This document shows, in pieces, positions 9,957 through 52,189 of a DNA stretch of 54,590 nt. Within the stretch, counting starts at the first letter, position 1. Each line of letters opens with the position of its first letter. The stretch is from Deltaproteobacteria bacterium HGW-Deltaproteobacteria-22 (GTDB taxonomy: Bacteria; Myxococcota_A; Polyangia; HGW-17): the NCBI GenBank assembly GCA_002841825.1, contig PHAZ01000006.1, positions 1 through 54,590 of the forward strand, read 5' to 3'. Below the pieces are notes generated by a model. It saw only the letters and a program-made list of their open reading frames with translations, did no database searches and was not told the DNA's origin. Position numbers and translations under genes: made by a program.

Positions 9957-11672
9957 TCAGGGGATCCGCGTCATCTGCCCGGACAGGAACCGGTACAGGC
10001 GGGGACGGCGCTGGTTTTTTCCGTTCGTATCGAAGACGCGGCCCAGGCCGGGGCCCTGGTTCCACTGGGCGATGGCCTCCCGCAGAAGGATCCGCGAGCC
10101 CGCGCTGCGAACCGCCGGGATCGGGAGGGACTTGATCCACCAGTAGGTCTCCGACGCGACCGAGAGCACCACAGGGGCCTTGAGGCGGGTGAAGAAGGCG
10201 TTCATCGTGTTGAACTCCGGGTCGGGGGCGCCGGAATAATAGCCCGGCGCGAAGATGCCACCCTCCAGGTAGCGCGCGTTCCGGGAGACGATGGACGGGG
10301 ACAGGGCCTCGGCGGTCGCCAGCAGCAGGAAACCCTTGCCCTGGGCGTTGATCGGCGCCGGGAAGGCGCCGGCGACGGCCAGCCGCCGGGCCAGGGAGGC
10401 GACGCGCTCGGCGGCGTCCGGGATGAGGATCCCCTGGGCCGAGGACAGGTTCGGCAGGTTCAGCCGCTGTGGCAGTTTGGCCGGATCGTAGGTCGAGGAG
10501 AAGACGACGGTGCCACGGTTCTTCGTGATCGCTGCGGCGGCGGCGACGGCCAGCTCGCGGCCCGACGTCGTGTCCGGGACCAGGATGCCCAGGCGGGTGG
10601 CCTTCTCGGAGACGGCCTGCAGGATCAGGGCCTCCACCCGGGCCTTGCGCGTGGGCTGGGCGTAGAAGACCGCGGCCGAAGGGGGCAGGTCCGTGCCGTC
10701 GGCCGGGGAGAGGAACAGGAGGTCCGCGCCGGCGGCGAGGACCAGCCGGGCGCTGTCGGGATCGGGCGGCAGGATCACGGCCAGGGGCCGATCCTTGAGC
10801 AGGATCTCCTCCTGCAGCAGCTGCAGGGCGGTGCCCGGCGAGGAGTTGGTGTTGTGCACCAGGATCTCGAGGGCCGGGATCTCGGCCCTCGCTGACGCGA
10901 GGGCTTGCAGCATCTGCAGTCCCAGGGGGGACCAGGCGCCCGTGACCGGCACCAGCGCGCTGATGCGCCACGGTGTGCCGGAGGGATACGGGTGCTGCAG
11001 GTTGTACACCGCGGTCAGTTTGGCCAGGGTCTCGAGCTCGGCCACGGTCATGGGCTCGGACAGCCAGTGGTGACGAAGGCGCCTGGCCGCCAGGACCCAG
11101 TAGGCCGCGATGCCGCTGTAGGGGGTGAGATCAGGCAGCCGGTCGCCGGTGAGCAGGGACGGGAGCCACTCGAACAGGGCCTGCTTGACGGCCGCCGTGG
11201 CCCCCGGGGCAGCGTACAGGTGGTCTGCGAACAACAGAAGCCCCTCGGGCCGGCAGCGGGTGTAGACGCCGAGCATGCCGTCGATCTGGGCCCAGAAGTC
11301 GTCACCGGAGAGGACCGGGCGCACGGAGATCACGCGCTTGCCCAGATACGTCGCCGTCAACTGTTCCTTCTCGGCGGCGGTGAAGGTGTCGAGGAAGACC
11401 CGGGCCCGGTCGAGGCGTCCGGTGCAGGCGTGGTGCACCGTCAGCAGCATGCGGGCCGCGCGGCGCTCGGGGGGCTCGGGCGGCACGGAGCCGTCGGGGT
11501 TCTCCGGCATGGGATCAAGCAGGGGTTTGAGGCGGACGAAGGCCTGGGGCTCCTGGCCCGAGGAGAAGTCCGCGGCGGCCTGGTACAGGGGCAGGTAGAC
11601 CGGCGGCACGACGTTGCCGGTGACGGTGCCCTGGGGCGTGGAGAGAAAAAGACAGGTGAGGATCCAGAGCAT
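9957..11672 (-). CDS. Exported protein: helical N-terminus plus type-1 periplasmic-binding-fold C-terminus (LpoA/penicillin-binding-protein-activator-like)
   Basis: Short signal peptide; ISALVPVTG..S.LG..M, ILVHNT, LGILVPD...G, GILIPD pattern typical of PBP type-1 folds. Confidence 0.6.
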   Translation of the reverse strand: MLWILTCLFLSTPQGTVTGNVVPPVYLPLYQAAADFSSGQEPQAFVRLKPLLDPMPENPDGSVPPEPPERRAARMLLTVHHACTGRLDRARVFLDTFTAAEKEQLTATYLGKRVISVRPVLSGDDFWAQIDGMLGVYTRCRPEGLLLFADHLYAAPGATAAVKQALFEWLPSLLTGDRLPDLTPYSGIAAYWVLAARRLRHHWLSEPMTVAELETLAKLTAVYNLQHPYPSGTPWRISALVPVTGAWSPLGLQMLQALASARAEIPALEILVHNTNSSPGTALQLLQEEILLKDRPLAVILPPDPDSARLVLAAGADLLFLSPADGTDLPPSAAVFYAQPTRKARVEALILQAVSEKATRLGILVPDTTSGRELAVAAAAAITKNRGTVVFSSTYDPAKLPQRLNLPNLSSAQGILIPDAAERVASLARRLAVAGAFPAPINAQGKGFLLLATAEALSPSIVSRNARYLEGGIFAPGYYSGAPDPEFNTMNAFFTRLKAPVVLSVASETYWWIKSLPIPAVRSAGSRILLREAIAQWNQGPGLGRVFDTNGKNQRRPRLYRFLSGQMTRIP

Positions 11673-11676
11673 GGGT

Positions 11677-12963
11677 TCAGTTCCGCTTGAGCACGATCAG
11701 GTGGTAGTTGCGCTTGCCCGATCGCAGCACGAGGTATTTTTCGAAGAGGAAGTCGCCTTCGGAGACGGTGCGGTCCTTGTCCGTGACCTTCTCCTGGTTC
11801 AGGGAGACGCCGCCGGACTCGAGGAGGCGCCGGGCCTCGCCCTTGGACTTCACGAAGCCCGAGAGCGCGCACAGATCCACCAGCGGGAGGGCCGAACCGA
11901 GCACGGAGGATTCGAGGGTGAAGGCGGGGACGTCGGCGAAGATGCCGGCGAGCTCCTCGGCGCGCACCTCACGAAGGTCGCCGCCGAAGAACACGCGGGT
12001 CCCGCGCAGGGCCGACTCCAGCCCCTCCTGGCCGTGGACCAGCCGGGTCATCTCCTCGGCCAGCCGGGTGTGCGCCGCGCGCAGCTCGGGCTTCTCCCCG
12101 TGGGTCGCTGCCAGTTCGGCGATCTCCTCGAGGGGCACGAACGTGAAGTAGTTCAGCAGCTTGATGACGTCGTCGTCGGCGGTGCGCAGCCAGAACTGGT
12201 AGAAGTGGTAGGGGCTGGTGCGGCTCGGATCCAGCCACACCGTGCCGGCCTCGGTCTTGCCGAACTTGGTGCCCGCCGAGGTCGTCAGCAGCGGCACGGT
12301 CAGGCCGTGCACGGTGCTCCCGGTGAGCCGACGGATCAGATCCGCGCCGGCGGTGATGTTGCCCCACTGGTCGGAGCCGCCCAGTTGAAGCGTGCAGCCG
12401 TCGTTCTGGAACAGGTGCAGGAAGTCGTAGGCCTGCAGCAGCTGGTACGAGAACTCGGTGTAGGAGATGCCCTGCTCCCGGTTCTCCAGGCGCATCTTCA
12501 CCGACTCCCGGGCGATCATGGCGTTGACGGAGAAGTGTTTTCCCACGTCGCGCAAAAACGACACCAGCGACAGGCCCGACAGCCAGTCCGCGTTGTTGCG
12601 CACCAGGGCGCCGACCCTGGGATCCTCGAGATCGAGCATGGCGCGCAGCTGGTCGCGGATGCCCGAGACGTTGCGGCCGAGGACGCCCTCGTCGAGGAGC
12701 TGGCGCTCGGCGGACTTGCCCGAGGGGTCCCCGATCATGCCGGTGGCGCCGCCCACGAGGATGATCGGACGGTGCCCGGCGCGTTGCAGGCGCGCCATGG
12801 TGATCATCGGCAGCAGGCTGCCCACGTGCAGGCTGTCGGAGGTGGGATCGAAGCCGACGTAGAAGTTGACCGGCGCGTGCTCGTCGAGATGGGCGCGCAG
12901 GGCGGCCTCGTCGGTGGAACTGTGGAACAGGCTGCGTTGGTGGAGTTCATCCAGGATGTGCAT
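11677..12963 (-). CDS. tyrS: Tyrosine--tRNA ligase
   Basis: YVGFDPTSDSLHVG, QLGGSDQWGNI, KFGKT, C-terminal S4 domain. Confidence 0.97.
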   Translation of the reverse strand: MHILDELHQRSLFHSSTDEAALRAHLDEHAPVNFYVGFDPTSDSLHVGSLLPMITMARLQRAGHRPIILVGGATGMIGDPSGKSAERQLLDEGVLGRNVSGIRDQLRAMLDLEDPRVGALVRNNADWLSGLSLVSFLRDVGKHFSVNAMIARESVKMRLENREQGISYTEFSYQLLQAYDFLHLFQNDGCTLQLGGSDQWGNITAGADLIRRLTGSTVHGLTVPLLTTSAGTKFGKTEAGTVWLDPSRTSPYHFYQFWLRTADDDVIKLLNYFTFVPLEEIAELAATHGEKPELRAAHTRLAEEMTRLVHGQEGLESALRGTRVFFGGDLREVRAEELAGIFADVPAFTLESSVLGSALPLVDLCALSGFVKSKGEARRLLESGGVSLNQEKVTDKDRTVSEGDFLFEKYLVLRSGKRNYHLIVLKRN

Positions 12964-13017
12964 TTCTCATGGCTCCAATTGAAAAGCGGGGGGCTCGGAA
13001 AAGGATCGGACAGGCCG

Positions 13018-15891
13018 TCAGTTCTTCGTGGGCTCTTCGATCGCGGCGAGCAGTTTCTTGACTTCCTCGAGCTCCTTCATGCCCAGGCGGCCGAGGATCT
13101 CACGGCTCTCCTTGAGCGCGGCGTGGGCCTCCTTGTCGCGGCCGGCCTCGATGAGGAACTCGGCGTAGCGCTTGAGTGAGAGGGCGATCTCGCGCTCGAG
13201 CTTGAGCATCTTGAACAGGTCGATGCCCTGCTGGAAGTGGCCGATGGTCTCCTCCAACTGGTGCGCCGCGCTCTCGGAATCACCCGCGGAAAAGGCCGTG
13301 GAGGACAGGATCTCGGCGATGGTGATCGCCGCGCGGGCCTTGAACTCGAGGATGTCCAGCTCCTTGGCCAGGGCCAGGGCCTCCATGGCGAAGTCCATGG
13401 CCTCCTCGTTCTGGCCGAGCTTCTGCAGCACCAGGCCCATGTTGCGCTTGGCGTCAAACTGCACGCGCTTCTCGTGCATGTCCGTGGCCAGCTCGATGGC
13501 GCGCTCCAGGCGCTTGCGGGACTCCTGGTACTTGCCCATGCGCAGCAGCGCCTCGCCGAGGTTGTTCTGCAGCTTGGCCTCCATGGGGCTGTAGCCGATG
13601 TTCTGGGCGATGGTCAGGCCGCGCTGCCAGTCCTCGACGGCCTCGTCGAGCTGGCCCTGGTGGAAGTGCAGGATGCCCAGGCTGTTGAGCGTGCGGCACA
13701 CGCCCGACTGGTCTCCCAGGCTGCGGTTGATCGAAAGCGCCTCGTTGAAGCAGGAGGCGGCCTCGTTGAACAGGCCCTTGTCGATCTCGATGAAGCCGAT
13801 GTTGGTGAGCACCACCGCGATGGAGCGGGCGTCCCCCAGCCGTCGGCGGATCTCCAGGGCCTCGCCGCAGGCGCGCATGGCCTCGTCGAAGTCGCCCAGG
13901 GAGTAGAGCACCGTGCCCAGGTCGTCGTGGGAGGAGGCCACGCCGCGCAGATCGCCGGCGGCCTCGAACAGGTTCAGTCCGCGCTTGAGGTATTCCAGCG
14001 CCAGGCTGAGCTTGCCCTGCTGGCGGTAGAGGCGCCCCATCTTGTTGAAGGCGACGCCGCCCTTGGCGCGGGAGGCCATGACCCAGGAGAGCCGCAGCAT
14101 CTTCTCGTAGCAGGAGAGCGAGCGGTCGAACTGGCCCTTGATCTCGTACACGTTGCCCAGGTCATGCCACATCTGCATGCGCAGGCTCACCTGCTGCGGG
14201 TTCTGGACGGACAGGGCCTGGATGTACAGCCGGATGGCCTTGTCGTTGAGGAACACCGTGCGGGCCAGATCGGCGGCCTTCTGGTAGGAGAGGGCGGCCT
14301 TCTCGGGCGCGCCGGCGAGCTCCAGGTGGCGTCCGACCTCCTCGAGCAGCTCGGGCGTGGGATCGAGCAGGTGCAGTTGCAGCCACTCGGCGGCCTGGTA
14401 GTGGAAGATCTTCCGCTGCTGCTCCTTGGTGGAGTCGTAGACGATGTTCCAGATCGGCGGATACTTGAAGCGGAACTGCCTCTCGCCGGGCAGAGCGCTG
14501 ACGGGCACGGTCTCGATGAAGCCGCGGACCACGTGGCGCTCGAGGCTGTGGGCGACCAGGTTCACGGTGAACTCGCCCGATCGGGTGATCGAGTCCAGCG
14601 AGGGACCGTCGTGGTCGGTCTTCATGTCGTCGGCATAGATCGAGCGGCGGATCAGGGAGACCACGCCGTCCTGCCAGAACGTCTCGCCGAAGGTGGCCGC
14701 CCGGTTGAGGATGTCGTGATCGCCGTCGGGCAGCAGGTAGATGCGGGCCCGCAGGATGCCCTCGAGGGTGTAGGGCAGCTCGGTGGTGGCCAGCATGGAG
14801 AGCCGGAACTTCCAGGGCGTGCCCGAGACGTCGAGGACCTCGGACTCGATGAGCAGGCGGGCGAGCTCCTCGATGGCGCGGGGGCTGCGATCCATGTGCT
14901 CCTGCACGTGGTTGACGACCGCCTTCGGGATCTTCTCGACGGAGGGCAGCAGGTGGCCCAGCAGGGACTCGGCGTCGGACGAGCCGAGGACCGGCAGGCG
15001 CAGGCGCAGCGTGGCGTACTCGCCCGAGGACCACTGCGGATACCGCGTGAAGAGGTTGTCGCGTCCGCCCGTCAGGATCAGCACCGGCAGGCGCTCGAGC
15101 CCGGCGGCGAGATAGTTGATCAGGTTCACCGTCTCGGGCTCGATGGCGTCCACGCCATCCATGATCAGCAGGAGGACCTTGTCCTCGGCCATCAGGGACA
15201 GGATGCGGCGCAGCGCGATGAACACGCGCAGCTCGATCTGGGAGGGGACGCGCAGCAGCGGCTCGAGCACAGGGCTGCCCTCGAGCTCGAAACCCAGGAA
15301 CTGGGTGAACAGGTGGGCCGTCTCGGTGAGCTGGGCGCCCTGCAGGTAACGCTTCAGGCTCTCCTCGAACTTGGCGCAGACCGTCTCGGCGTCGTTGTCG
15401 GCGAAGTCCAGCTCGAAGAACCGGGCCAGCGCGTCGATGACGCCGGTGTACGGCGTCGCCAGGAGGACCCGCGGGGTGCCCAGCAGCACGTGGACCGTGC
15501 CCTCGGCGGCCAGCTGCCGGCCGAACTCCTCGAGCAGGCGCGTCTTGCCGATGCCGGCAGGGCCGTGCACGGTCACAAAGGACAGGCGGTGGTTCACCGT
15601 GACGCGGTTGAGCTCCTCGCGAAGGCGTTCCAGATCGTCGGTCCGCCCCACGAACACCGGGGAGGGGCCCACAGAGCGCAGGCCGCGTGGCTTCTTCTCG
15701 AACGGGGAGTCAGGATCGTCATCGAAGCCGGCTTCGGTGGCCAGGGCGGCCTCGACCTTGCGGGGCGTGGATTCGATCTCGGCCTCCGAGGAGGTCTCGG
15801 TCCGGGAGGACAGACCGAACTGGTATCCGCAGACCTGACAGACGGCCTCGTTATCGGACGGCAAGGGGACACTGCAACGCGGGCATTTCAT
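13018..15891 (-). CDS. Zinc-ribbon + STAND-type (AAA_16-like) NTPase + TPR-repeat protein
   Basis: CPRC-x11-CQVC; FVGR..L..L; GPAGIGKTRL Walker A; LLIMD Walker B; about 10 TPR-like repeats. AGGAG RBS before the ATG at 15891, which overlaps the upstream gene's stop. Confidence 0.85.
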   Translation of the reverse strand: MKCPRCSVPLPSDNEAVCQVCGYQFGLSSRTETSSEAEIESTPRKVEAALATEAGFDDDPDSPFEKKPRGLRSVGPSPVFVGRTDDLERLREELNRVTVNHRLSFVTVHGPAGIGKTRLLEEFGRQLAAEGTVHVLLGTPRVLLATPYTGVIDALARFFELDFADNDAETVCAKFEESLKRYLQGAQLTETAHLFTQFLGFELEGSPVLEPLLRVPSQIELRVFIALRRILSLMAEDKVLLLIMDGVDAIEPETVNLINYLAAGLERLPVLILTGGRDNLFTRYPQWSSGEYATLRLRLPVLGSSDAESLLGHLLPSVEKIPKAVVNHVQEHMDRSPRAIEELARLLIESEVLDVSGTPWKFRLSMLATTELPYTLEGILRARIYLLPDGDHDILNRAATFGETFWQDGVVSLIRRSIYADDMKTDHDGPSLDSITRSGEFTVNLVAHSLERHVVRGFIETVPVSALPGERQFRFKYPPIWNIVYDSTKEQQRKIFHYQAAEWLQLHLLDPTPELLEEVGRHLELAGAPEKAALSYQKAADLARTVFLNDKAIRLYIQALSVQNPQQVSLRMQMWHDLGNVYEIKGQFDRSLSCYEKMLRLSWVMASRAKGGVAFNKMGRLYRQQGKLSLALEYLKRGLNLFEAAGDLRGVASSHDDLGTVLYSLGDFDEAMRACGEALEIRRRLGDARSIAVVLTNIGFIEIDKGLFNEAASCFNEALSINRSLGDQSGVCRTLNSLGILHFHQGQLDEAVEDWQRGLTIAQNIGYSPMEAKLQNNLGEALLRMGKYQESRKRLERAIELATDMHEKRVQFDAKRNMGLVLQKLGQNEEAMDFAMEALALAKELDILEFKARAAITIAEILSSTAFSAGDSESAAHQLEETIGHFQQGIDLFKMLKLEREIALSLKRYAEFLIEAGRDKEAHAALKESREILGRLGMKELEEVKKLLAAIEEPTKN

Positions 15892-16718
15892 GGTGAACCG
15901 GCTCCTTTCCGAATGTTCTGGCACCAGGCGCTCATCCTGGCCCGGCGACGGGCGGCCTCCTGGAGGCGAACCAGCGGGGGTTCAGGGGGCTTTCCGGAGC
16001 GGGGCTGCCAGAAAGCTTCGATTTCATTGGAAAATTCAACCACGGGTTCCCCACGGGTGACCCGCTGGCAGTTGTCGAGGTAGACCGAACGGATGATGCG
16101 GGGCACCGCCTCGACCGACCACGCATTGGTGTCGTGAAACAGGGCCACGCCGCGGCCGAACTGGGCCAGATCGCGCAGCACGTTCTGGAACGCCAGGTTG
16201 ACGTGCCGCTGGAACGGGTCGTTGGAGTCGACGTTCCACATCACGTTGGTGTACTTCAGTTCCCGCAGCACCACGCGGGAGGCGCCGGTCATGCCACCGA
16301 AGGGCGGCCGGTACAGCCACGGGGCGACGCCGGTGACCCGGGTGATCGCGGCGTGGGTCCGCTCGATCTCCTTGCGCTGCACCTCGGGGGGGGTCTGGGA
16401 CATCATGGGATGGGTCTGCGTGTGGTTGCCCACGACGTGACCCCGGCGATGGGCCTCCTCCAGGATCGCGCGGTTCTTCTGGGTGAGCGGAAGCGTGCCC
16501 GAGAAGCGGCGGCCGTTGACGAAGAAGATGGCCTTCACCCCCAGATCGTCGAGGTAGTCCAGAAGCACCGGTGTGGTCTCCCAGGCCGGGCCATCGTCAA
16601 AGGTCAACACGAGCTGGCGGCCCTGGGCCCAGTTGCCGTCGACGTCCTGACCGTCGGCCGTCTGGGGCGGAGTCTGGGAGAGAAAAAGACTGGTGAAAAT
16701 GAGGACCCACAGGTTCAT
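15888..16718 (-). CDS. Exported polysaccharide deacetylase (NodB/CE4)
   Basis: LTFDDGP, GNHTQTHP, RPPFG, WNVDSND, LFHD; signal peptide. Confidence 0.92.
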   Translation of the reverse strand: MNLWVLIFTSLFLSQTPPQTADGQDVDGNWAQGRQLVLTFDDGPAWETTPVLLDYLDDLGVKAIFFVNGRRFSGTLPLTQKNRAILEEAHRRGHVVGNHTQTHPMMSQTPPEVQRKEIERTHAAITRVTGVAPWLYRPPFGGMTGASRVVLRELKYTNVMWNVDSNDPFQRHVNLAFQNVLRDLAQFGRGVALFHDTNAWSVEAVPRIIRSVYLDNCQRVTRGEPVVEFSNEIEAFWQPRSGKPPEPPLVRLQEAARRRARMSAWCQNIRKGAGSP

Positions 16719-16791
16719 GAAAACCCTTTCAGAGCGGAGCGCATCCTATCACAAGGGCCCCTTCCAATACCAGAGTCTTTTCTTGGGCCGT

Positions 16792-18948
16792 TTACAGGCC
16801 GTAATAGCAGCGGTTGGCCACACGCCTGGATCCCGGGGGACACTGCAGGGGCTTGGGGGGCTGACACTTGCCTTCGCGGTCGCGCAGCTGCTTGCCGGGG
16901 CAGGTCCGTTTCCAGTCCTTGTGGAAGGGCAGGCACACGTTGAGGCGGTCCGAGGGTCGGCCGTGGCCCGCCGGGCAGGGAGAGGGCACGCAGCGGCCCT
17001 GGGGGTTGGCGAAGGTGCCCGCCGGGCAGGTCCTGGGTGGCGCGAGGCAGGCCTGGGTCTTGGAATCCCGGACCGTGCCCGCAGGACAGGTCTCCTGGAC
17101 GCAGGCACCCGAGGGCAGGCGCTTCCAGCCCGCCGGACAGGTCCCGGTCACGCATTTGCCGTCGGCGTTCCGGATGGTCGTCCGGGGACAGGTGTCCTCG
17201 ACACAGGTTCCGTCCGTGCTGTGATGGTAGCCGGTCGGGCAGGCCTTGCGCGGGCCTGGGCCCGGCGGGGGCGGATCCCTGGGCGGCGGCGCAAGGGAGA
17301 TGCAGGTCTCCGAGATCGGGTCGCGGCGCGTGTTGGCCGGACACATCTTCGGGACGCACCGGGTGCCGTCGGAGGAGAAGCGCTCATGCTCCTCGCACTC
17401 CACCGGACCCTGGCATTTGCCGTCGGCGCCGCGCTTCTGGCCCTTGGGGCAGGACTGCCACACGCAGACCTGGGCACCCTCGGGGCGGAACTTGCCCGCC
17501 GGACACGGTGAGCAGCGCATGCCCGGATCGCGGAACCCGGTGGTGCCGCAGTCGACCGGAACACAATAGTTCAGGCCGTCGGGCCTGAAGAAGCCCTCCT
17601 TGCAGCGACAGGCGCCCGTCTCCGGGTGCTTTTCGTGGCCCTCGGTGCAGGTGGCCGGTGCGCAGTGCCTGCCGTCAGGGCTCAGGAGGGTGCCGGCCGG
17701 GCAGGCGCAGTCATGGGACTTGGGGTCGCGGATGGAGCCTTCGGGGCAGGTCTTCGGGACGCAGGAGGGCGCGATGGCCGGCCGGAACAGGCCCGCGGCG
17801 CAGGGGACGCACTGATGCTCGGCGTTGCGATCGTGATGGAGCGGACAGACCTGCGGAACGCAGCGGGTCGCGGACGGATTCATCATCTGGTCGACCGGGC
17901 ACACGCAATTTCCCAGCGTGTCGCGCACCGCACCCGCGGCGCACTGGATGGGCACGCATTGCAGACGACCCACCGGCCGGATCTGGCCCGACGGGCAGGG
18001 CGGGAAGGCGCACTCGTCGGTCTGCGGATCCCGCTTGACGCCGCGCGGGCAGACCTTCTGGACGCAGCGCTTCTGATCCACGGACAGCCTCAGCGGTCCG
18101 GCGCACGTGATGGGCACGCACTTCTGGGTCACCCCGTCGCGCTGGGTGCCGGTCGGGCACGAGAGCTCCACGCAGTAGTCCTTGTCCATGGGGCGGACCA
18201 GGCCGGCCGGGCAGGGGATCCATTCGCACTGGCGGGTGGAGGCGTTCCATCGCTTCTGGGCATCGCAGGAGCGCGCAACGCAGGTGAACGAGCCGGCGGG
18301 GCGCCATTGCCCGGCCTCACAGGGATAGCACTTCAGATCCGAGGCTAGGTAGGCCTCCTCTCCGCAGTCCTTCAACTGGCACTGGCCGTTCTTCAGTTCC
18401 ATGCCCGGCTTGCAGGCGCACAGGCCGTCGGGGCCGCGCACGGATCCCCTTGGACAACTGGCCGAGGACACGCACGTGCCCTTGGCGTCGGCGACGGTCC
18501 CGCGTGGACAGCGCGCCACGCAGGTGTCCAGATCGGCCACGCGGAACTGCCTGGCCGGACATCGCTTGGGCACGCAGACGCCGGCCTTCGGGCTCCAGCG
18601 GTCGTTGGCGCCGCAGCGCGGCTTGCAGGTCATGTCCTTGGCCCGGATCTGGTCCGCGGCGCAGGATCGTGGCACACAGCGCGAGGCCCCCGGAAGGATG
18701 GCGGTGCCCGCGGCACAGTAGCACCGTCCGTCGCTGCCCCTGAACTGCCCAGGCACGCACGTCACCGGCACACAGTAGCCGCCCTTGGGATGGGCATGCA
18801 GTTTCTGGTCCTTGGGGCAGTGGCAGACCCCGGCCTTGTCACGGTTGGCGCCCGTCGGACAAGGAGCTTTGGGCTTGGACTGGGCCATGGAAACTTGAAA
18901 GTTCAGGAAGAACGCAAAGATCACCACTGGACGAAAAATATTTTTCAT
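16792..18948 (-). CDS. Secreted cysteine-rich tandem-repeat protein (718 aa, 39 C-x10-14-C modules)
   Basis: GGAGG RBS, signal peptide MKNIFRPVVIFAFFLNFQVSMA, then 78 Cys in consensus CPxGxxRxxxGxC modules; coding-like GC3 bias. Confidence 0.85.
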   Translation of the reverse strand: MKNIFRPVVIFAFFLNFQVSMAQSKPKAPCPTGANRDKAGVCHCPKDQKLHAHPKGGYCVPVTCVPGQFRGSDGRCYCAAGTAILPGASRCVPRSCAADQIRAKDMTCKPRCGANDRWSPKAGVCVPKRCPARQFRVADLDTCVARCPRGTVADAKGTCVSSASCPRGSVRGPDGLCACKPGMELKNGQCQLKDCGEEAYLASDLKCYPCEAGQWRPAGSFTCVARSCDAQKRWNASTRQCEWIPCPAGLVRPMDKDYCVELSCPTGTQRDGVTQKCVPITCAGPLRLSVDQKRCVQKVCPRGVKRDPQTDECAFPPCPSGQIRPVGRLQCVPIQCAAGAVRDTLGNCVCPVDQMMNPSATRCVPQVCPLHHDRNAEHQCVPCAAGLFRPAIAPSCVPKTCPEGSIRDPKSHDCACPAGTLLSPDGRHCAPATCTEGHEKHPETGACRCKEGFFRPDGLNYCVPVDCGTTGFRDPGMRCSPCPAGKFRPEGAQVCVWQSCPKGQKRGADGKCQGPVECEEHERFSSDGTRCVPKMCPANTRRDPISETCISLAPPPRDPPPPGPGPRKACPTGYHHSTDGTCVEDTCPRTTIRNADGKCVTGTCPAGWKRLPSGACVQETCPAGTVRDSKTQACLAPPRTCPAGTFANPQGRCVPSPCPAGHGRPSDRLNVCLPFHKDWKRTCPGKQLRDREGKCQPPKPLQCPPGSRRVANRCYYGL

Positions 18949-19280
18949 GGAACCTCCAACCATCCGTCTGAAAACAAGCAGGAAAAATGCGAAAACCGGG
19001 AAAAAGACGGATGCCTGTTCGATTTTCTTCATATCCCAAGGACCGAAACATCGCAAATAAAGTGACGGATCTGATTTACGCAATTATTTCAAACACTTAC
19101 AGACTTTCCGGAAAAGAAGAGCCTGCTTTTTGACTATGTACCGCGCCCATGTTCCGTACGTCTTTCAAGCGTTTTTCGGACCCGGTTTTGGAAAATTCGG
19201 AGCGTCCTTGCCATCCGGAAGTCAAACGGGTTAACTCAGTAACACTTTGCGGCCCCGTTGTTCGCAACGTCTGAAAGAAC

Positions 19281-20579
19281 ATGAACATTTCGTTGTGGAA
19301 CCACATCTCATCCTTACTGGAGCAGGAAATCCTGCCGCTGAACTTCAGCCTGTTCCTGTCGGATGTGGTGGTTTCCGGCGACGGGGACGAGTTGATCCTG
19401 TCCTGTCCCAACGAGTTTGTGCTCGAGCAGGTGCGATCCAACTACGAGGAGCGCATCCGGGAGCTGGCCCGGCAGATCTCCGGAAGGGAAATCGCCGTCC
19501 GGGTCACCAGCGGTCCGCAGATCGCGAACCCGCCGGTCCGGCTGATGCCCGCGACCCCCGCCGGGGAGTCCCCGTCCCCGCCGGATCCGTCGACCTTCCT
19601 GCTCAACGCCGAGGTCGTCGAGGGTCCCGAAAACCTGTTCGCATGGCAGGCCCTGCGCCAGGCCATCGCCTTCCCCGGCCGATACAACCCGCTGTTCGTG
19701 TACGGTAAGACCGGCGTCGGCAAGTCGCGGTACCTGCAGACGATCGCCAGCGCCTACGAGAAGCGCGGCAGGAAGGTGCTTCTCCTGCGCGGTTTCGAAT
19801 TCATGAACCAGTACATGATGGCCGTGCAGAAGAACGCCTATGAGGCGTTCTACCAGCACTTCTGCGGCCTGGATCTGCTGTGCATCGACGACGTTCACTA
19901 TCTTGAGGGCAAGGACCGGACCCAGGAGACCTTCACCAACATCTTCAACGGCCTGTTCGACTCGGGAGCCCAGATCGTCCTGAGCGCCGACCGGCCTCCC
20001 AACGCCATCACAGGCATGATGGAGGCGCTCGTCTCGCGTCTGACCTGGGGATTGATCCTCGAGATCGCGCCGCCCTCGGAGACCACCCGGCGACGGCTCG
20101 TCGAGCGCTGGAGCGCCCACGCGCAGCCCCTGCCGGCCGCGGTCGTGGAGCGCCTGGTGGCCCACCCCTTTGCCAGCGTGCGTGCCTTCGAGGGGGTCCT
20201 GACGCGGTTGTGGGCGCAGACGGAGATCTTCGGCCGTCCGGTGGGCCTGCGGGAAGTGCAGGAGGAGCTGGAGAGGACCGGGGAGGACGCCGCACCCCTG
20301 GGACTGTCCGAGATTGAACGGCTCGTGTGCGATCATTTCAACCTCTCCTCGCGGGAGTTGACCGGAAAGGATCGCTCCCTGCGTGTGGCGCGTCCGCGCC
20401 AGTTGGCGATGTACCTGGCCAAGAAACACGGCAGCTCCAGCTACCCCGTGATCGGCGAGTTCTTTGGCCTCAAGAGCCACTCGTCGGTGATCAGCGCCTG
20501 CAGGCGCATCGAGAAGTTGCGGCGATCCGACCGACAGTTGTCCCTGGATCTCGATGAAATCGAAAAAAACCTGAAATAG
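19281..20579 (+). CDS. dnaA: DnaA-family replication initiator homologue (divergent, possibly a paralogue)
   Basis: YNPLFVYG..GVGKS, LLCIDDVH, SADRPP, LVSRLTWG, SVRAFEG, domain IV RPRQLAMYL...IGEFFG..HSSV; all four domains present. Confidence 0.85.
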   Translation: MNISLWNHISSLLEQEILPLNFSLFLSDVVVSGDGDELILSCPNEFVLEQVRSNYEERIRELARQISGREIAVRVTSGPQIANPPVRLMPATPAGESPSPPDPSTFLLNAEVVEGPENLFAWQALRQAIAFPGRYNPLFVYGKTGVGKSRYLQTIASAYEKRGRKVLLLRGFEFMNQYMMAVQKNAYEAFYQHFCGLDLLCIDDVHYLEGKDRTQETFTNIFNGLFDSGAQIVLSADRPPNAITGMMEALVSRLTWGLILEIAPPSETTRRRLVERWSAHAQPLPAAVVERLVAHPFASVRAFEGVLTRLWAQTEIFGRPVGLREVQEELERTGEDAAPLGLSEIERLVCDHFNLSSRELTGKDRSLRVARPRQLAMYLAKKHGSSSYPVIGEFFGLKSHSSVISACRRIEKLRRSDRQLSLDLDEIEKNLK

Positions 20580-20730: not shown

Positions 20731-21993
20731 CTACTCGGGAGCGGGTTCGCCGCCGCCCTCGCCGCCAGCCTCGCCGCCGCCTTCGCCGTCGACTTCAGCG
20801 CCGCCGCCCTCTTCCGTGTCGCTTCCGCCTTCGGAGGTCGTGGCCTCCTCGGCGTTCTTGCGCATCATGGTGGAGACCTTGGCTTCCTTCTGCATGTTGG
20901 CGTTGGCGTTGGAGGACTTGCCCATGGCCAGCAGGCCGATGGGCATCAGGGAGAGCACCATGGCGATGAAGCCCAGCGTAAACAGGGCGCGGCTGATCGG
21001 GGTGTGCTCCATGGCCATGCGCTCGAAGCGGGTGGCTTCGCTCACGGGCAGGGCTTCCATCGGGATCGGCTTCTCGACCTCGGGGGGATTGAGCTTGTAT
21101 TCCCCGCCGCTCATTGAGGGCATTTCCTCGCGCATCTTGCCGATGCGTCCGGTGGCGGCCATGGCGATGGCGACCAGGGGACCCACGCCCAGCAGCGCGA
21201 CGATCATCACGACGATGTCGCCAGAGTAGAAGCCGGCGACGTAGTACCGATACAGGTAGGCTGCGAACATGCCCACCAGGAACACGCCGGCGACATGGAT
21301 GAAGCCATCGCGGTTCTTCTTGTGAGACATGTAGGCGGCCCCGGCCATGATCAGGAGCAGGAGGATGAAGATCAGGATAGTGAACGCCATGTCCCTGGAC
21401 AGGACGGAGTCGGACACGGAGGACAAGACGGAGAGCTTCTGGACTTCCATCGGGGCCATGCCCAGCACGTCGGGTCCCTTTCCGTCCTTGCCGGTCTTGC
21501 CGACAAACATCGCTTCGGTGGCGTAACACTTGAAGCCGTTGTTCTTGCGGACCACGTCATTGAGTTTGCCGCAGGTCTCGGCCTTGGAGGCGTAATCCTC
21601 GGCGAACTTCTTGTCGATTTCCTTGAAGTCCGGGGACGCAAAGGCGCCGACCATCTTGCAGGTCAGGTATTCCGACTCCAGCGCGAACATCTTGGGAGTG
21701 CAGTCCGTGGCGTTGTCGATGACCACGCATTCCTTGTTTTTCAGGCGGTCACCCGAGCACGGGGTCGGGGATCCGACCTTGAACATGCCCAGGGGAATGA
21801 TCAGGGTGATGAAGCTCAGTCCGACACCGATCAGCAGCATGTTGGACATGCTGCTTCCGAACTTGTTCGGCCCGGGGGAGCCGTACGATGATCCCGTGGA
21901 CCCGTAGTCGAACTGACCTCCCGCGGGCGGCGGGGGCGGCATGGGATTCTGATTTTGCGGTTCCAAAGGCTGCATTCCGTTTTGATCGTTCAT
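20731..21993 (-). CDS. Hypothetical polytopic membrane protein (about 5 TM, six-Cys loop, Gly/Glu tail)
   Basis: Long ORF with hydrophobic segments; GGAGGA RBS before the ATG at 21993 (alternative start 22005). Confidence 0.78.
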   Translation of the reverse strand: MNDQNGMQPLEPQNQNPMPPPPPAGGQFDYGSTGSSYGSPGPNKFGSSMSNMLLIGVGLSFITLIIPLGMFKVGSPTPCSGDRLKNKECVVIDNATDCTPKMFALESEYLTCKMVGAFASPDFKEIDKKFAEDYASKAETCGKLNDVVRKNNGFKCYATEAMFVGKTGKDGKGPDVLGMAPMEVQKLSVLSSVSDSVLSRDMAFTILIFILLLLIMAGAAYMSHKKNRDGFIHVAGVFLVGMFAAYLYRYYVAGFYSGDIVVMIVALLGVGPLVAIAMAATGRIGKMREEMPSMSGGEYKLNPPEVEKPIPMEALPVSEATRFERMAMEHTPISRALFTLGFIAMVLSLMPIGLLAMGKSSNANANMQKEAKVSTMMRKNAEEATTSEGGSDTEEGGGAEVDGEGGGEAGGEGGGEPAPE

Positions 21994-22294
21994 GCGGTCC
22001 TCCATGAAAGTGATTGATTCCTAACCTACCGGAAGATACGGAGTCAAGAACTAGTTCTCCGTTTTTTCGAGAAAAACGCGAAAAAACGCACTCCGGCGGG
22101 ATCGGATCCGGGGTTCCCCGGTGGGAGGGAACAGGTGGGCAGCATCCATGGGTCCGGACCTTTGGAAGACCGGCTCTGCAGAGTCGGTCGATCGGCGTCA
22201 CGTTGAGACGGCCGAACCGGAACCACCACCGGCGCGTCGACCGCAGCCGGAAGGGAAGCGGGACGGATCCGGAGATCGGAACCGCTTCAGGAGC

Positions 22295-22382: not shown

Positions 22383-23471
22383 GTGCTGTTATTGATTCAA
22401 AAACTTGGCTATTTTCCACGCACGGCCGTGTGGGAACTGACCCTTGGCTGTAATCTTTGTTGCAGGCACTGCGGGTCCCGCGCGGGCCAACCCCGGGAAC
22501 GCGAACTGACCGCGGATGAGGCCTTCAGGCTCGCGGACGAACTGGTGGATCTCGGGCTGGAGCGGATCACCTTGTCCGGTGGCGAGCCCACCCTGTGTGA
22601 ATACTGGGTCGAGCTGGGCGCCCGGTTGGTGAAGGCCGGCGTCAAAGTGAACCTGATCAGCAACGGCATGGGTTGGAACGGGGATCACGCGCGCCGGGCC
22701 AAGGAGGCCGGATTTGAATCGGCCGCCTTCTCGGTCGACGGCTTCGCGTTCGCCCACGACTACATCCGTGGCGTGGAGGGCGCCTTCGATCACGTGCTCG
22801 AGGCGTTCGCTGCCTGCCGCGAGGCTGGGCTCCCGATCGGGTGCGTGACCACGGTCTACAAGCACAACTGGCGTGACCTGCGCAAGCTTCGTGCCTTCCT
22901 CCACGAGCAGGGCGTGCGCTCCTGGCAGGTGCAGATCGGCAATCCCGCGGGCAACATGAGTGATCATCCGGATCTGGTGATCGTGCCGCAGGATCTGCTC
23001 GAGATCGTCCCCGAGCTGGCCGCCCTTCGGCGCGAGGACGAGAAGCCAGACGTGTACATCGGTGACAACGTCGGCTACTTCGGACCCTATGAAAAGGATC
23101 TGCGGGACACGGGCCGGGAGATCGACTTCTGGCTGGGTTGCCGCGCCGGACTGCAGGTCGTCGGCATCGAGAGTGACGGCGGCATCAAGGGATGTCTGTC
23201 GCTGCCGTCGGAGCTCAACCGGGAGGATCGCTTCCTCGAGGGCAACGTGCGGCGGCGATCGCTCACCGACATCTGGTGCGATCCCGACGCGTTCTCCTAC
23301 AACCGCAAGTTCAACGTCAGTCGCCTCTCCGGCTTCTGCGCGCTCTGCAAGTACAATGAGGTCTGTCGCGGCGGCTGCCTGTGGACCGCGTTCTCGCATT
23401 CCGGCGACCGGTACGAGAATCCGTTCTGCTACTACCGCGTTGCGGTGGAAGCGGGCGTGCTCGAGCCCTGA
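22383..23471 (+). CDS. Radical SAM/SPASM-domain protein
   Basis: CNLCCRHC (CxxxCxxC), LSGGEP, SPASM Cys set GCRAG..GIESDG.IKGC...C..C....C.GGC...C; GTG start after GAGGAG. Confidence 0.92.
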   Translation: MLLLIQKLGYFPRTAVWELTLGCNLCCRHCGSRAGQPRERELTADEAFRLADELVDLGLERITLSGGEPTLCEYWVELGARLVKAGVKVNLISNGMGWNGDHARRAKEAGFESAAFSVDGFAFAHDYIRGVEGAFDHVLEAFAACREAGLPIGCVTTVYKHNWRDLRKLRAFLHEQGVRSWQVQIGNPAGNMSDHPDLVIVPQDLLEIVPELAALRREDEKPDVYIGDNVGYFGPYEKDLRDTGREIDFWLGCRAGLQVVGIESDGGIKGCLSLPSELNREDRFLEGNVRRRSLTDIWCDPDAFSYNRKFNVSRLSGFCALCKYNEVCRGGCLWTAFSHSGDRYENPFCYYRVAVEAGVLEP

Positions 23472-50813: not shown

Positions 50814-52189
50814 CTACATGGTGCGTGCGGCAAGATCAAGTGCCTCACACTGTTGCCGGATCTTTCGCTTCTGCGGCTCGGTCAGGGCGAGGGTGATCAG
50901 GAACGACAGGCCGTCGGAGAGCGGAAAGGCCGCCCAGACGCCCCAGAGGCCGATCATCGGAGGCAGGATCAGCACCAGGGGGATGAAGAAGAACACCTGC
51001 CGGGACATCGACAGGATGAAGGCGGGCCACGCGTGGCCCATCGCCTGGAACATGGTGACGCCCACGACGTGATACCCGACCACCGGGATGCCCAGGGAGG
51101 CGATGCGCAGCACCGGGGTGCCCTCGGAGACGAGCTCGGGCGAGGTGGAGAACACCAGGATCAACTGGGCGGGGAACACCCACAGGACCAGGAACGCCCC
51201 GGCGGCGATGCAGGTGGCGATCACCGTGGAGAGACGGATGGCCTCGCGGCTCTTGCAGGGATTGCCTGCGCCCTCATGGTAGCCCAGGATCGGCTGAAGG
51301 CCCTGCACGAGCCCGAACAGCGGCATGAACAGGAACATCACCAGGCGGTAGTAGATGCCGTAGATCGCCAGGTGGAGATCCGTGCCGTAGTTGTGGATCA
51401 TGTGGTTGATCAGGATGGTCATGATCGAGGAGGCGGCGTTGCGCGCGAACACCGAGGCCCCCAGGACCGTGATGCGCGCGATGGGCTCCCGACGGGGCAC
51501 GATGGACTTCCAGTGCAGGCGAACGAAGGAGCGTCTGGACAGGAAATAGAACAGGAGCCACAAAAACGAGGCCCAGTTGGCCAGCACCGTGGCCCAGGCG
51601 GCTCCGGCGACACCCCCGTCGAGCCACCAAATGAACAGCGGATCGAGGAGGATGTTGAGGCCCGCCGAGATCAGCATCGTCCCCATGGCGAGGCGGGCGT
51701 TGCCCTCGGCGCGCACCAGGTTGTTCAGGGCGACCGAGCCGCAGAAGGGCAGGTAGCCCCAGACCATGACCTCCACATATTCGTGGGCATAGCCCAGCGT
51801 GGTAGGGGTGGCGCCGAACGCTCGGAGGATGGGGTCGACCCACAGGGACACCGCCAGGGTGAAGACCAGGCTGGAGAGCATGGTTAAAAAGAAAACATTG
51901 CCCAGGTACCGCTCGGCCTCGGTCCGTCGGCCCTTTCCGATCTCCAGGCTGACCATGACCCCGCCGCCGACGCCGATGGACTGGCACAGACCCATGAGCA
52001 GCATCTGCAGGGGAAACGCGATGGCGAGGCCGGCGATGGCGCCGACGCCGACGAAGTGGCCCACGAAGATGGTGTCCACGATGTTGTACGAGGCCATCAC
52101 GAGCATGCCCACCGTGGCAGGGAGCGAGAGGCGCCAAAGCAGGCGCGGGATCGGCTCGTCCCGCAGGTGGTCGACGTGGGAGGGCTCCT

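What the first reader, a model, noticed from the sequence alone, without database searches (positions are those of the whole stretch)
13018..18948. Candidate new three-gene system: Cys-repeat secreted protein + exported CE4 deacetylase + STAND-TPR
Seen: same strand, a 73-nt gap, then an ATGA overlap between the deacetylase and the STAND gene, all divergent from dnaA. Established: CE4 enzymes de-N-acetylate GlcNAc polymers (chitin, peptidoglycan, PNAG). Inference: a module combining an extracellular glycan-binding scaffold, a glycan-modifying enzyme and an intracellular NLR-like switch, for example for prey or host contact or for masking the cell's own wall. I know of no named system with this layout.
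Basis: partly seen in the sequence, partly recalled or inferred. Interest (0 to 1): 0.7.

Follow-up and report, generated by a model that had tools for sequence, protein, structure and literature searches.

The report
Deacetylase–STAND gene pair, not a trio
The three neighbouring genes are real, but only the exported sugar deacetylase and the ATP-switch/TPR protein form a gene pair conserved across a group of uncultured myxobacteria. The cysteine-repeat secreted protein belongs with dnaA and sits beside the pair only in this genus.

Summary
Three minus-strand genes lie at the stated coordinates, with a 73-nt gap and then an ATGA start/stop overlap, and they diverge from dnaA.

The trio occurs only in 6 close genomes of one genus, where tyrS and dnaA are syntenic too.
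- In the sister genome of that genus and in other genera of the family, the Cys-repeat gene stays divergent from dnaA, while CE4-STAND sits elsewhere.
- CE4→STAND is an old two-gene unit. One well-supported STAND clade (Polyangia/Haliangiales-type MAGs) holds 58 of 60 CE4-linked copies. The junction is usually ATGA/GTGA or under 25 nt.
- The CE4 catalytic motifs are invariant, and the two proteins' divergences track each other (Mantel r = 0.93).
- The 73-nt gap holds a conserved extended −10-like block, also present where the Cys gene is absent. This suggests the pair has its own promoter.

The STAND protein is single-copy in close relatives, more conserved than tyrS within the genus, and matches no specific defence model. 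It looks like a housekeeping signalling STAND, not an immune NLR. The function of the pair is unknown. My best guess is co-expressed envelope-glycan de-N-acetylation plus a cytoplasmic switch. Interest is modest.

The parts
16792..18948 (-). Secreted cysteine-repeat protein: 718 aa, 39 two-Cys beta-hairpin modules. It is NOT part of the conserved pair; its conserved partner in position is dnaA (divergent).
   Evidence: 78 Cys with alternating spacing. No Pfam, NCBIfam or PDB sequence match. AF2 pLDDT 76: a signal helix, then a rod of beta-hairpins whose fold hits are EGF/TNFR-like arrays. Divergent from dnaA in 4 genera of the family without CE4/STAND downstream.
16743..16781 (-). Conserved block in the 73-nt gap: AAAAGACTCTGGTATTGG (16781-16764) and the extended -10-like TGATAGGAT (16751-16743). 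Candidate own promoter of CE4-STAND.
   Evidence: An alignment of the CE4 upstream regions of 7 genus members keeps TGnTAGGAT (TGGTATAAT in L053, TGATAGAGT in L055). L055 is G005, where the Cys gene is not upstream. This is inference from conservation only; the generic promoter scan found nothing.
15888..16718 (-). Exported or membrane-anchored CE4 (NodB-fold) de-N-acetylase, first gene of the conserved pair.
   Evidence: PF01522, 103.7 bits. Best PDB relative is S. pneumoniae PgdA 2c1g, E = 5e-25, with catalytic motifs aligned. TFDDGP, H..H, R-P-x-[FY]-G, D and L-x-H-D are invariant or nearly so in 54 STAND-linked orthologues. An N-terminal hydrophobic segment is conserved.
15888..15891 (-). 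ATGA stop/start overlap between CE4 and STAND, with a GGAG Shine-Dalgarno inside the 3' end of CE4.
   Evidence: ATGA/GTGA or a gap under 25 nt recurs in families f1-f4 of the order, at GC contents of about 39% to over 65%.
13018..15891 (-). Cytoplasmic STAND NTPase: N-terminal zinc ribbon, disordered linker, P-loop NOD, helical and winged-helix parts, and about 12 TPRs. Second gene of the pair.
   Evidence: AAA_16 and TPR families. Alignment A1 has invariant GxxGxGK[ST] and a Walker-B Asp. AF2 pLDDT 84, pTM 0.68. Best fold match is the STAND-TPR protein PH0952, 6mfv, E = 5.5e-16. No TM segment.
11677..12963 (-). tyrS (tyrosyl-tRNA synthetase), 54 nt downstream of STAND. Context: it follows the pair throughout family f1.
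   Evidence: PF00579, E = 2.4e-84. Synteny.
9957..11672 (-). Peripla_BP_6-like protein, 4 nt after tyrS. Context: it follows the pair throughout family f1.
19281..20579 (+). dnaA, divergent from the Cys-repeat gene. The Cys<>dnaA arrangement is conserved across the family.
   Evidence: Arrangement. It is the only strong Bac_DnaA hit in the family's genomes.

Best explanation
The region is two independent conserved units placed side by side.

Unit 1 is a monocistronic gene for a secreted rod-like protein made of 39 disulfide-stapled mini-modules. It sits divergently next to dnaA in every genus of this family that I could examine.

Unit 2 is a two-gene operon. An exported CE4 (NodB-fold) metal-dependent de-N-acetylase comes first. 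A cytoplasmic STAND ATPase follows, built of a zinc ribbon, a P-loop NOD and about 12 TPRs, and its start codon overlaps the deacetylase stop. The operon is inherited vertically through a large Polyangia (Haliangiales-type) clade. In this family tyrS and a PBP-like gene follow it. A rearrangement inside this genus, after G005 branched off, placed unit 2 behind unit 1.

Shown:
- the anatomy;
- the clade-wide linkage and co-descent of CE4 and STAND;
- intact catalytic and nucleotide-binding motifs;
- the absence of the Cys gene from the unit.

Inferred:
- CE4-STAND is transcribed from its own promoter in the 73-nt gap.
- The two proteins are made together.
- CE4 removes N-acetyl groups from peptidoglycan GlcNAc or another GlcNAc-type envelope polymer in the periplasm.
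- The STAND protein acts as a housekeeping ATP-driven switch or scaffold in the cytoplasm. Its very conserved TPR array would bind an endogenous partner rather than a foreign one.
- The pair therefore serves a shared envelope-maintenance programme, not a physical complex.
For: Trio limited to one genus:
- tblastn on fetched loci finds PBP-tyrS-STAND-CE4-CYS<>dnaA only in G006, G003, G004, G001 and G007, plus the window.
- G005 has CYS<>dnaA on C38 and CE4-STAND-tyrS-PBP on C68.
- In other genera of the family, genomes G012, G009 and G011 keep CYS<>dnaA with different downstream genes (G008's contig ends inside dnaA). In G010 the contig shows the Cys gene without CE4/STAND downstream.

Pair conserved:
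- CE4 lies immediately upstream of STAND in families f1-f4, f6, f7 and f18, with ATGA/GTGA or a short gap and an internal GGAG.
- Of 71 loci from 185,579 species genomes that had room upstream, 56 have a CE4 hit upstream of STAND and 55 of these are on the same strand.
- In a 141-sequence STAND tree, one clade (support 100, 87 rows) holds 58 of the 60 CE4-linked copies. Outside it only 2 of 54 are linked. A phylum-wide sample gave 5 of 58.
- The divergences of the two proteins track each other: Mantel r = 0.93, matched by 0 of 999 permutations.

Enzymes look competent:
- CE4 motifs are invariant in 54 orthologues, and the best PDB match is PgdA.
- STAND has an invariant P-loop and Walker B and a STAND-TPR fold.

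Housekeeping character of STAND:
- Within the genus it is 81-99% identical, against 74-99% for tyrS. Between genera it is 53-60%, against 60-62% for tyrS.
- The TPRs hold many invariant columns.
- PADLOC gives only a generic TPR match.

Own promoter: a conserved TGnTAGGAT block is kept in G005, which has no Cys gene upstream. Upstream genes elsewhere are divergent.
Against: - No transcript data exist. All 15 public runs that hold the sequence are DNA metagenomes. Operon structure and the promoter are therefore inferred. No terminator was found after the Cys gene, so read-through from it is not excluded.
- CE4 and STAND work in different compartments, so the functional link has no demonstrated mechanism.
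- The pair is not obligate. About 20 of 78 clade members with room lack an adjacent CE4, which needs roughly 14 or more changes on the tree. STAND homologues in other Myxococcota classes have no CE4 neighbour.
- In the Kofleriaceae-type subclade the zinc ribbon is lost and the genes are 70-150 nt apart rather than overlapping.
- The substrate of CE4 is unknown, and motif 4 has Pro in place of the usual Trp in this genus.
- All genomes involved are MAGs.
Confidence: 0.72

Rival explanations
1. One reading: the Cys-repeat protein, CE4 and STAND form one three-component system (extracellular scaffold, glycan-modifying enzyme and intracellular NLR-like switch).
For: Same strand, a 73-nt gap and no terminator detected between the Cys gene and CE4. 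The layout is kept in 6 genomes of the genus. Both the Cys protein and CE4 are exported.
Against: - The 6 genomes are close relatives in which tyrS, PBP and dnaA are syntenic too, so the layout carries no extra information.
- G005, of the same genus, and other genera separate the two units.
- CE4-STAND exists in dozens of lineages without a close Cys homologue.
- A conserved promoter-like block sits in the gap.
- There is no evidence that the Cys protein binds glycans.
Confidence: 0.04
2. CE4 and STAND are merely long-lived neighbours (inherited synteny and operon compaction) with no functional relationship. The STAND protein works alone, as it does in other Myxococcota.
For: - STAND homologues in most other Myxococcota classes lack a CE4 neighbour.
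- The pair has been lost repeatedly within the clade.
- The two products are in different compartments.
- In this family the same co-directional block also holds the unrelated tyrS.
- A high Mantel correlation is expected from shared vertical descent alone.
Against: - Adjacency with the same order and strand survives across at least 7 families and a GC range of about 39% to over 70%, while every other neighbour changes.
- The stop/start overlap with an internal SD is kept in four families.
- The STAND-linked CE4 is a distinct orthologous group: its E-values are 1e-53 or better, against about 1e-15 for paralogues in the same genomes.
Confidence: 0.2
3. The STAND protein is an NLR-like immune or conflict sensor, and CE4 is its effector or a co-opted partner.
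For: STAND NOD-TPR architecture. Multicellular-type bacteria are rich in STAND conflict systems, and a published phylogeny finds defence and non-defence STAND clades interspersed (PMC13581612).
Against: - No effector domain is present, and the zinc ribbon is dispensable in a subclade.
- PADLOC gives only a generic TPR hit.
- The gene is single-copy in close relatives, vertically inherited, and slower-evolving than tyrS within the genus.
- The TPR 'sensor' is the most conserved part.
- The neighbours are housekeeping genes.
- CE4 is exported, so it cannot act on a cytoplasmic invader.
Confidence: 0.04

Closest known systems
MalT/PH0952-type STAND ATPases with TPR sensors, and the cyclase- or kinase-AAA_16-TPR signalling proteins of Myxococcota and Actinobacteria
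   Same: P-loop NOD, then helical and winged-helix parts, then a TPR solenoid. The best fold match is PH0952 (6mfv), E = 5.5e-16. Pfam AAA_16 and TPR_MalT both score over their cut-offs. Distant sequence relatives carry adenylate cyclase or Ser/Thr kinase N-termini and double zinc ribbons (P0018-P0020, P0024).
   Different: There is no output domain: no HTH, cyclase or kinase, only a 25-aa zinc ribbon that one subclade has lost. It is translationally coupled to an exported enzyme gene, which I found described for none of these families (literature searches).
Peptidoglycan GlcNAc deacetylase PgdA (S. pneumoniae, 2c1g) and other CE4/NodB enzymes
   Same: NodB domain with all metal-binding and catalytic residues (D-D, H-H, R, D, H) aligned. 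Extracytoplasmic location.
   Different: Only about 90 bits to PgdA and far below the NCBIfam equivalog cut-offs (101 vs 800), so the substrate cannot be assigned. It has a short C-terminal tail with a conserved Cys pair. Motif 4 Trp is Pro in this genus.
Deacetylase plus TPR-protein pairs of synthase-dependent exopolysaccharide systems (PgaB/PgaA, PelA/PelB)
   Same: A CE4-type deacetylase is encoded next to a large TPR protein.
   Different: In those systems (from my own knowledge) the TPR protein is periplasmic and fused to an outer-membrane porin, and a glycosyltransferase synthase is in the operon. Here the TPR protein has a P-loop NTPase, no signal peptide and no hydrophobic segment. No synthase is nearby.
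EGF-like / TNFR-like cysteine-rich repeat arrays (e.g. the Chlamydomonas mastigoneme protein 8wa2, LRP2 EGF arrays, TNFR CRDs)
   Same: The Cys-repeat protein is predicted to be an extended rod of small disulfide-stapled beta-hairpin modules. Foldseek E-values are 6e-10 to 1e-3.
   Different: There is no sequence-family match (Pfam best E = 0.022). TM-scores are very low (at most 0.12) because the models are flexible rods. The module has two Cys and about 18 aa, not the six Cys of EGF. This is resemblance only.

Membership tests
Proposed three-gene system (Cys-repeat + CE4 + STAND) | The three genes co-occur as neighbours beyond closely related genomes | tested here: not met
   The trio occurs only in 6 genomes of one genus. 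It is split in G005 and absent next to the Cys gene in three other genera of the family. 50+ CE4-STAND loci have no Cys gene.
Proposed three-gene system (Cys-repeat + CE4 + STAND) | Co-transcription of all three genes | not testable with these tools
   No RNA runs hold the sequence. A conserved -10-like block in the gap argues for a separate start.
Conserved CE4-STAND gene pair (defined here) | Same order and strand, adjacent, across independent lineages | tested here: met
   58 of 78 clade members with room upstream. ATGA/GTGA or a gap under 25 nt in families f1-f4.
CE4 / NodB polysaccharide deacetylase (PF01522) | Pfam score over the gathering cut-off | tested here: met
   103.7 bits vs 23.1.
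CE4 / NodB polysaccharide deacetylase (PF01522) | Five catalytic motifs (TFDDG; H[ST]xxH; RxP[YF]; DxxD[WY]; LxH) | tested here: met
   TFDDGP, HTQTH, RPPFG, D(SN)D and LFHD are present. The key residues are invariant in 53-54 of 54 orthologues. Only the motif-4 aromatic is Pro here.
Peptidoglycan GlcNAc deacetylase PgdA (NCBIfam NF045820 equivalog) | Score over the curated equivalog cut-off | tested here: not met
   101.2 bits vs 800. Substrate not assignable.
STAND NTPase (AAA_16 / MalT-like) | Walker A and Walker B; NOD followed by helical and winged-helix parts and a repeat sensor | tested here: met
   GPAGIGKT and hhhhD are invariant. AAA_16 scores 78 bits vs 32.6. The AF2 model and the 6mfv match agree.
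STAND NTPase (AAA_16 / MalT-like) | Nucleotide-dependent oligomerisation switch | not testable with these tools
   Needs biochemistry.
Anti-phage NLR-like / Avs-type defence STAND | Match to known defence models, an effector domain, and a patchy or defence-island distribution | tested here: not met
   PADLOC gives only a generic TPR match. There is no effector, and the zinc ribbon is lost in a subclade. The gene is vertical, single-copy in close relatives, and has housekeeping neighbours.
Synthase-dependent EPS deacetylase/TPR-porin pair (Pga, Pel type) | Exported TPR protein with a porin, and a synthase gene in the operon | tested here: not met
   The STAND protein has no signal peptide or hydrophobic window and carries a P-loop. 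Its neighbours are tyrS, a PBP-like gene and dnaA.
XrtA/PEP-CTERM system deacetylase (TIGR03006) | Score over the curated cut-off | tested here: not met
   24 bits vs 276.2.
EGF-like / TNFR-like cysteine-rich domains (for the Cys-repeat protein) | Sequence-profile match, or a confident structural superposition | tested here: inconclusive
   There is no Pfam match over any cut-off. Foldseek E is down to 6e-10, but TM is at most 0.12 on rod-like models.

The most novel reading that the evidence does not exclude
The CE4-STAND operon could be a trans-envelope feedback module specific to Haliangiales-type myxobacteria. The periplasmic deacetylase would generate de-N-acetylated muropeptide or amino-sugar fragments. 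After uptake, these would be the endogenous ligand read by the ultra-conserved TPR array of the effector-less STAND ATPase. The STAND protein would then oligomerise and, through its zinc ribbon or the acidic N-terminal motif that replaces it, control a cell-wall or developmental programme. That would make it a housekeeping 'self-monitoring NLR' rather than an immune one.
Probability: 0.1. Interest if true: 0.6.

Novelty: new variant of a known kind. Interest (0 to 1): 0.3.

Why it matters
As a new three-gene system the finding does not stand, and establishing that is the main result.

What remains is a cleanly defined and so far undescribed conserved pairing: an exported CE4 deacetylase with an output-less STAND/TPR ATPase, in a large and almost entirely uncultured branch of Myxococcota.

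If the pairing is functional, it would be an example of a STAND switch used for envelope housekeeping rather than immunity or transcription. It would also give a handle (a defined enzyme partner) on a widespread family that public records call only 'tetratricopeptide repeat protein'.

The Cys-repeat protein is a separate, unannotated repeat family. Both are of moderate, specialist interest.

Tried and rejected
- **Transcript evidence.** The look-up of sequencing runs returned only DNA metagenomes (groundwater, biofilm, marine sediment), so junction-spanning reads could not be checked.
- **Generic promoter/terminator scan of 12800-19400.** It found no promoter-like site, and terminator-like hits were at chance level with none in the gaps.
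- **oriC idea for the Cys<>dnaA spacer.** There is no DnaA box (TTATCCACA, up to 1 mismatch) in the 332-bp spacer. The single window match is at 51392, below chance expectation.
- **A hidden third conserved gene around CE4-STAND.** I clustered the ORFs within 3.5 kb on either side in 73 paired loci. Only subclade-specific neighbours appeared (TerC, class IV aminotransferase, ABC-F, tyrS), and nothing was clade-wide.
- **Defence-system membership.** PADLOC gave nothing specific.
- **PDB sequence search with the NOD/helical part alone (residues 78-560).** No hit. The fold search was needed instead.
The neighbouring dnaA is the only strong Bac_DnaA hit in genomes of this family, so it is the real but divergent DnaA.
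- **Literature.** Two full-text searches found no description of a CE4-STAND pair.
- **Upstream element outside the genus.** I looked for the same element in other genera and found nothing recognisable.
Full report
**1. Observation**

The window has about 67% GC. On the minus strand lie five co-directional genes:
- a 718-aa Cys-repeat protein (16792-18948);
- a 276-aa CE4 deacetylase (15888-16718);
- a 957-aa AAA_16/TPR protein (13018-15891);
- tyrS (11677-12963);
- a Peripla_BP_6-like protein (9957-11672).

dnaA (19281-20579) is divergent on the plus strand. The Cys-CE4 gap is 73 nt. The CE4 stop and the STAND start share ATGA at 15888-15891, and a GGAG lies inside the 3' end of CE4.

**2. 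The three proteins**

*Cys-repeat protein.*
- It has 78 Cys. Their spacings alternate strictly between 12-13 and 2-6 residues, giving 39 modules of the form C-P-x-G-x-x-R-x(5)-C-V-P-x-x.
- It has no Pfam, NCBIfam, PADLOC or PDB sequence match.
- An AF2 model built on 11 orthologues (pLDDT 76, pTM 0.26) shows an N-terminal signal helix followed by a long rod of beta-hairpins.
- Foldseek finds only EGF-like and TNFR-like disulfide arrays, at very low TM.
- Nothing points to glycan binding.

*CE4.*
- It is a bona fide NodB-fold enzyme. Its best solved relative is pneumococcal PgdA (E = 5e-25), with the catalytic residues aligned.
- In 54 STAND-linked orthologues, TFDDGP, both His, the Arg, the motif-4 Asp and L-x-H-D are invariant or nearly so.
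- Nearly all orthologues start with a hydrophobic signal-like segment followed by a variable linker. A conserved Cys pair flanks the C-terminal tail. These features fit an extracytoplasmic enzyme.

*STAND protein.*
- It has a CPxC...CxxCG zinc ribbon, a disordered acidic linker, an invariant P-loop and Walker B, and about 12 TPRs.
- The AF2 model (pLDDT 84, pTM 0.68) matches best the STAND-TPR protein PH0952 (6mfv).
- It has no hydrophobic segment.
- Public records call its relatives only 'tetratricopeptide repeat protein'. Distant relatives carry cyclase or kinase N-termini.

**3. Is the trio a unit?**

The organism is an uncultured member of Myxococcota. Its relatives carry Polyangia, Haliangiales or Kofleriaceae names.
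- I fetched about 18-20 kb around every Cys-protein homologue in 19 related genomes. The full block PBP-tyrS-STAND-CE4-CYS<>dnaA appeared only in five other genomes of the same genus.
- The sixth genus member, G005, branches first in the STAND tree. It has CYS<>dnaA on one contig, with a convergent gene downstream, and CE4-STAND-tyrS-PBP on another.
- Other genera of the family have only about 39-40% GC. Where the flanking DNA could be read (G012, G009, G011), they keep CYS divergent from dnaA with unrelated downstream genes, and they carry CE4-STAND-tyrS-PBP elsewhere.
- Strong Cys-protein homologues are confined to families f1 and f2.

**4. What is conserved**

- CE4 sits directly upstream of the STAND orthologue, on the same strand, in families f1, f2, f3 and f4 of the order and in f6, f7 and f18. 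The junction is ATGA or GTGA, or under 25 nt, in f1-f4.
- A scan of one genome per species (185,579 species) with a STAND alignment found 200 relatives. Of the best 80 loci, 71 had room upstream. Of those, 56 carry a CE4 hit upstream of STAND, 55 of them on the same strand.
- A sample of 301 Myxococcota genomes shows that the STAND family is widespread (99 genomes at E ≤ 1e-60). Outside the clade it is almost never next to a CE4 (5 of 58).
- A tree of 141 STANDs resolves one clade (support 100, 87 rows) that holds 58 of the 60 CE4-linked copies.
- Within that clade the link was lost repeatedly, and a divergent gene then lies upstream.
- In the Kofleriaceae-type subclade the zinc ribbon is replaced by a short acidic N-terminus, and the genes are 70-150 nt apart.
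- The pairwise divergences of CE4 and STAND correlate (Mantel r = 0.93, matched by 0 of 999 permutations), so the two genes have descended together.
- No third gene is conserved across the clade.

**5. Transcription**

No RNA data exist. The 73-nt gap contains AAAAGACTCTGGTATTGG and an extended -10-like TGATAGGAT. This reads TGGTATAAT in G007. In G005, where the Cys gene is not upstream, it reads TGATAGAGT. I take this as a dedicated CE4-STAND promoter. That is an inference. Read-through from the Cys gene is not excluded, because no terminator was seen.

**6. What kind of STAND?**

- Within the genus the STAND protein is the most conserved gene of the block, at 81-99% identity. The others are tyrS 74-99%, CE4 76-98%, Cys 62-97% and dnaA 57-99%.
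- Between genera of the family it is 53-60% identical, against tyrS 60-62%, CE4 46-54%, Cys 38-42% and dnaA about 36%.
- The TPR array holds long invariant stretches.
- It is single-copy in close relatives, sits among housekeeping genes and matches no specific defence model.
- A published phylogeny finds defence and non-defence STAND clades interspersed (PMC13581612). This protein behaves like a non-defence one.

**7. Mechanism**

Partly shown, mostly inferred. The two genes are made together. CE4 is exported and de-N-acetylates an envelope GlcNAc polymer, with peptidoglycan the closest precedent. The STAND protein is a cytoplasmic ATP switch or scaffold whose TPRs bind a conserved endogenous partner. 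The link is most likely shared regulation within an envelope programme. A direct complex is unlikely, because the two proteins are in different compartments.

The main rival (about 0.2) is that the adjacency is inherited synteny without a functional link. It is supported by the repeated losses and by STAND homologues that work without CE4 elsewhere.

**8. Verdict**

The trio is not a system. A CE4-STAND pair is a real, undescribed and moderately interesting conserved unit. The Cys-repeat protein is a separate, unannotated secreted repeat protein tied in position to dnaA.

Noticed in passing
window 19281-20579 (dnaA) and 18949-19280 (spacer): The dnaA is unusually fast-evolving. It is about 36% identical between genera of the same family, against 60-62% for tyrS. 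Its Bac_DnaA scores are 120-170 bits in this family, against 225-240 in sister families. It is still the only strong DnaA hit per genome. There is no dnaN next to it and no canonical DnaA box in the 332-bp spacer.
   Followed up: partly
G000:C80:11269-11727 (own genome, another contig): A second, weak Bac_DnaA-domain hit (72.7 bits) in the window's own assembly. It could be a paralogue, an Hda-like protein or bin contamination.
   Followed up: no
L018, L019, L020 (G012, G009, G011) versus the window: Genera placed in the same family differ hugely in base composition (about 39-40% GC against 65-67% here), yet they keep the Cys<>dnaA and CE4-STAND-tyrS-PBP arrangements.
   Followed up: no
L108, L111, L117, L125 and others (Kofleriaceae-type STAND orthologues), N-termini: The zinc ribbon is replaced by a short acidic N-terminus with conserved P[LV]TW[DE] and ERTPSFEPADFG motifs. 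This may be an alternative partner-binding peptide.
   Followed up: partly
window 9957-12963: tyrS is followed after 4 nt by a fast-evolving Peripla_BP_6-like protein with an N-terminal hydrophobic segment. The tyrS-PBP pairing is kept in every genus of the family.
   Followed up: no
window 22383-23471: A radical-SAM/SPASM protein gene lies about 1.8 kb beyond dnaA and is syntenic in the genus (81-98% identity). A 424-aa minus-strand ORF without any Pfam match (20731-22005) lies between them.
   Followed up: no
P0017-P0020, P0024: Distant STAND relatives carry adenylate/guanylate cyclase, Ser/Thr kinase and double-zinc-ribbon N-termini. The zinc-ribbon-only protein here looks like a stripped-down member of that signalling family.
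   Followed up: no
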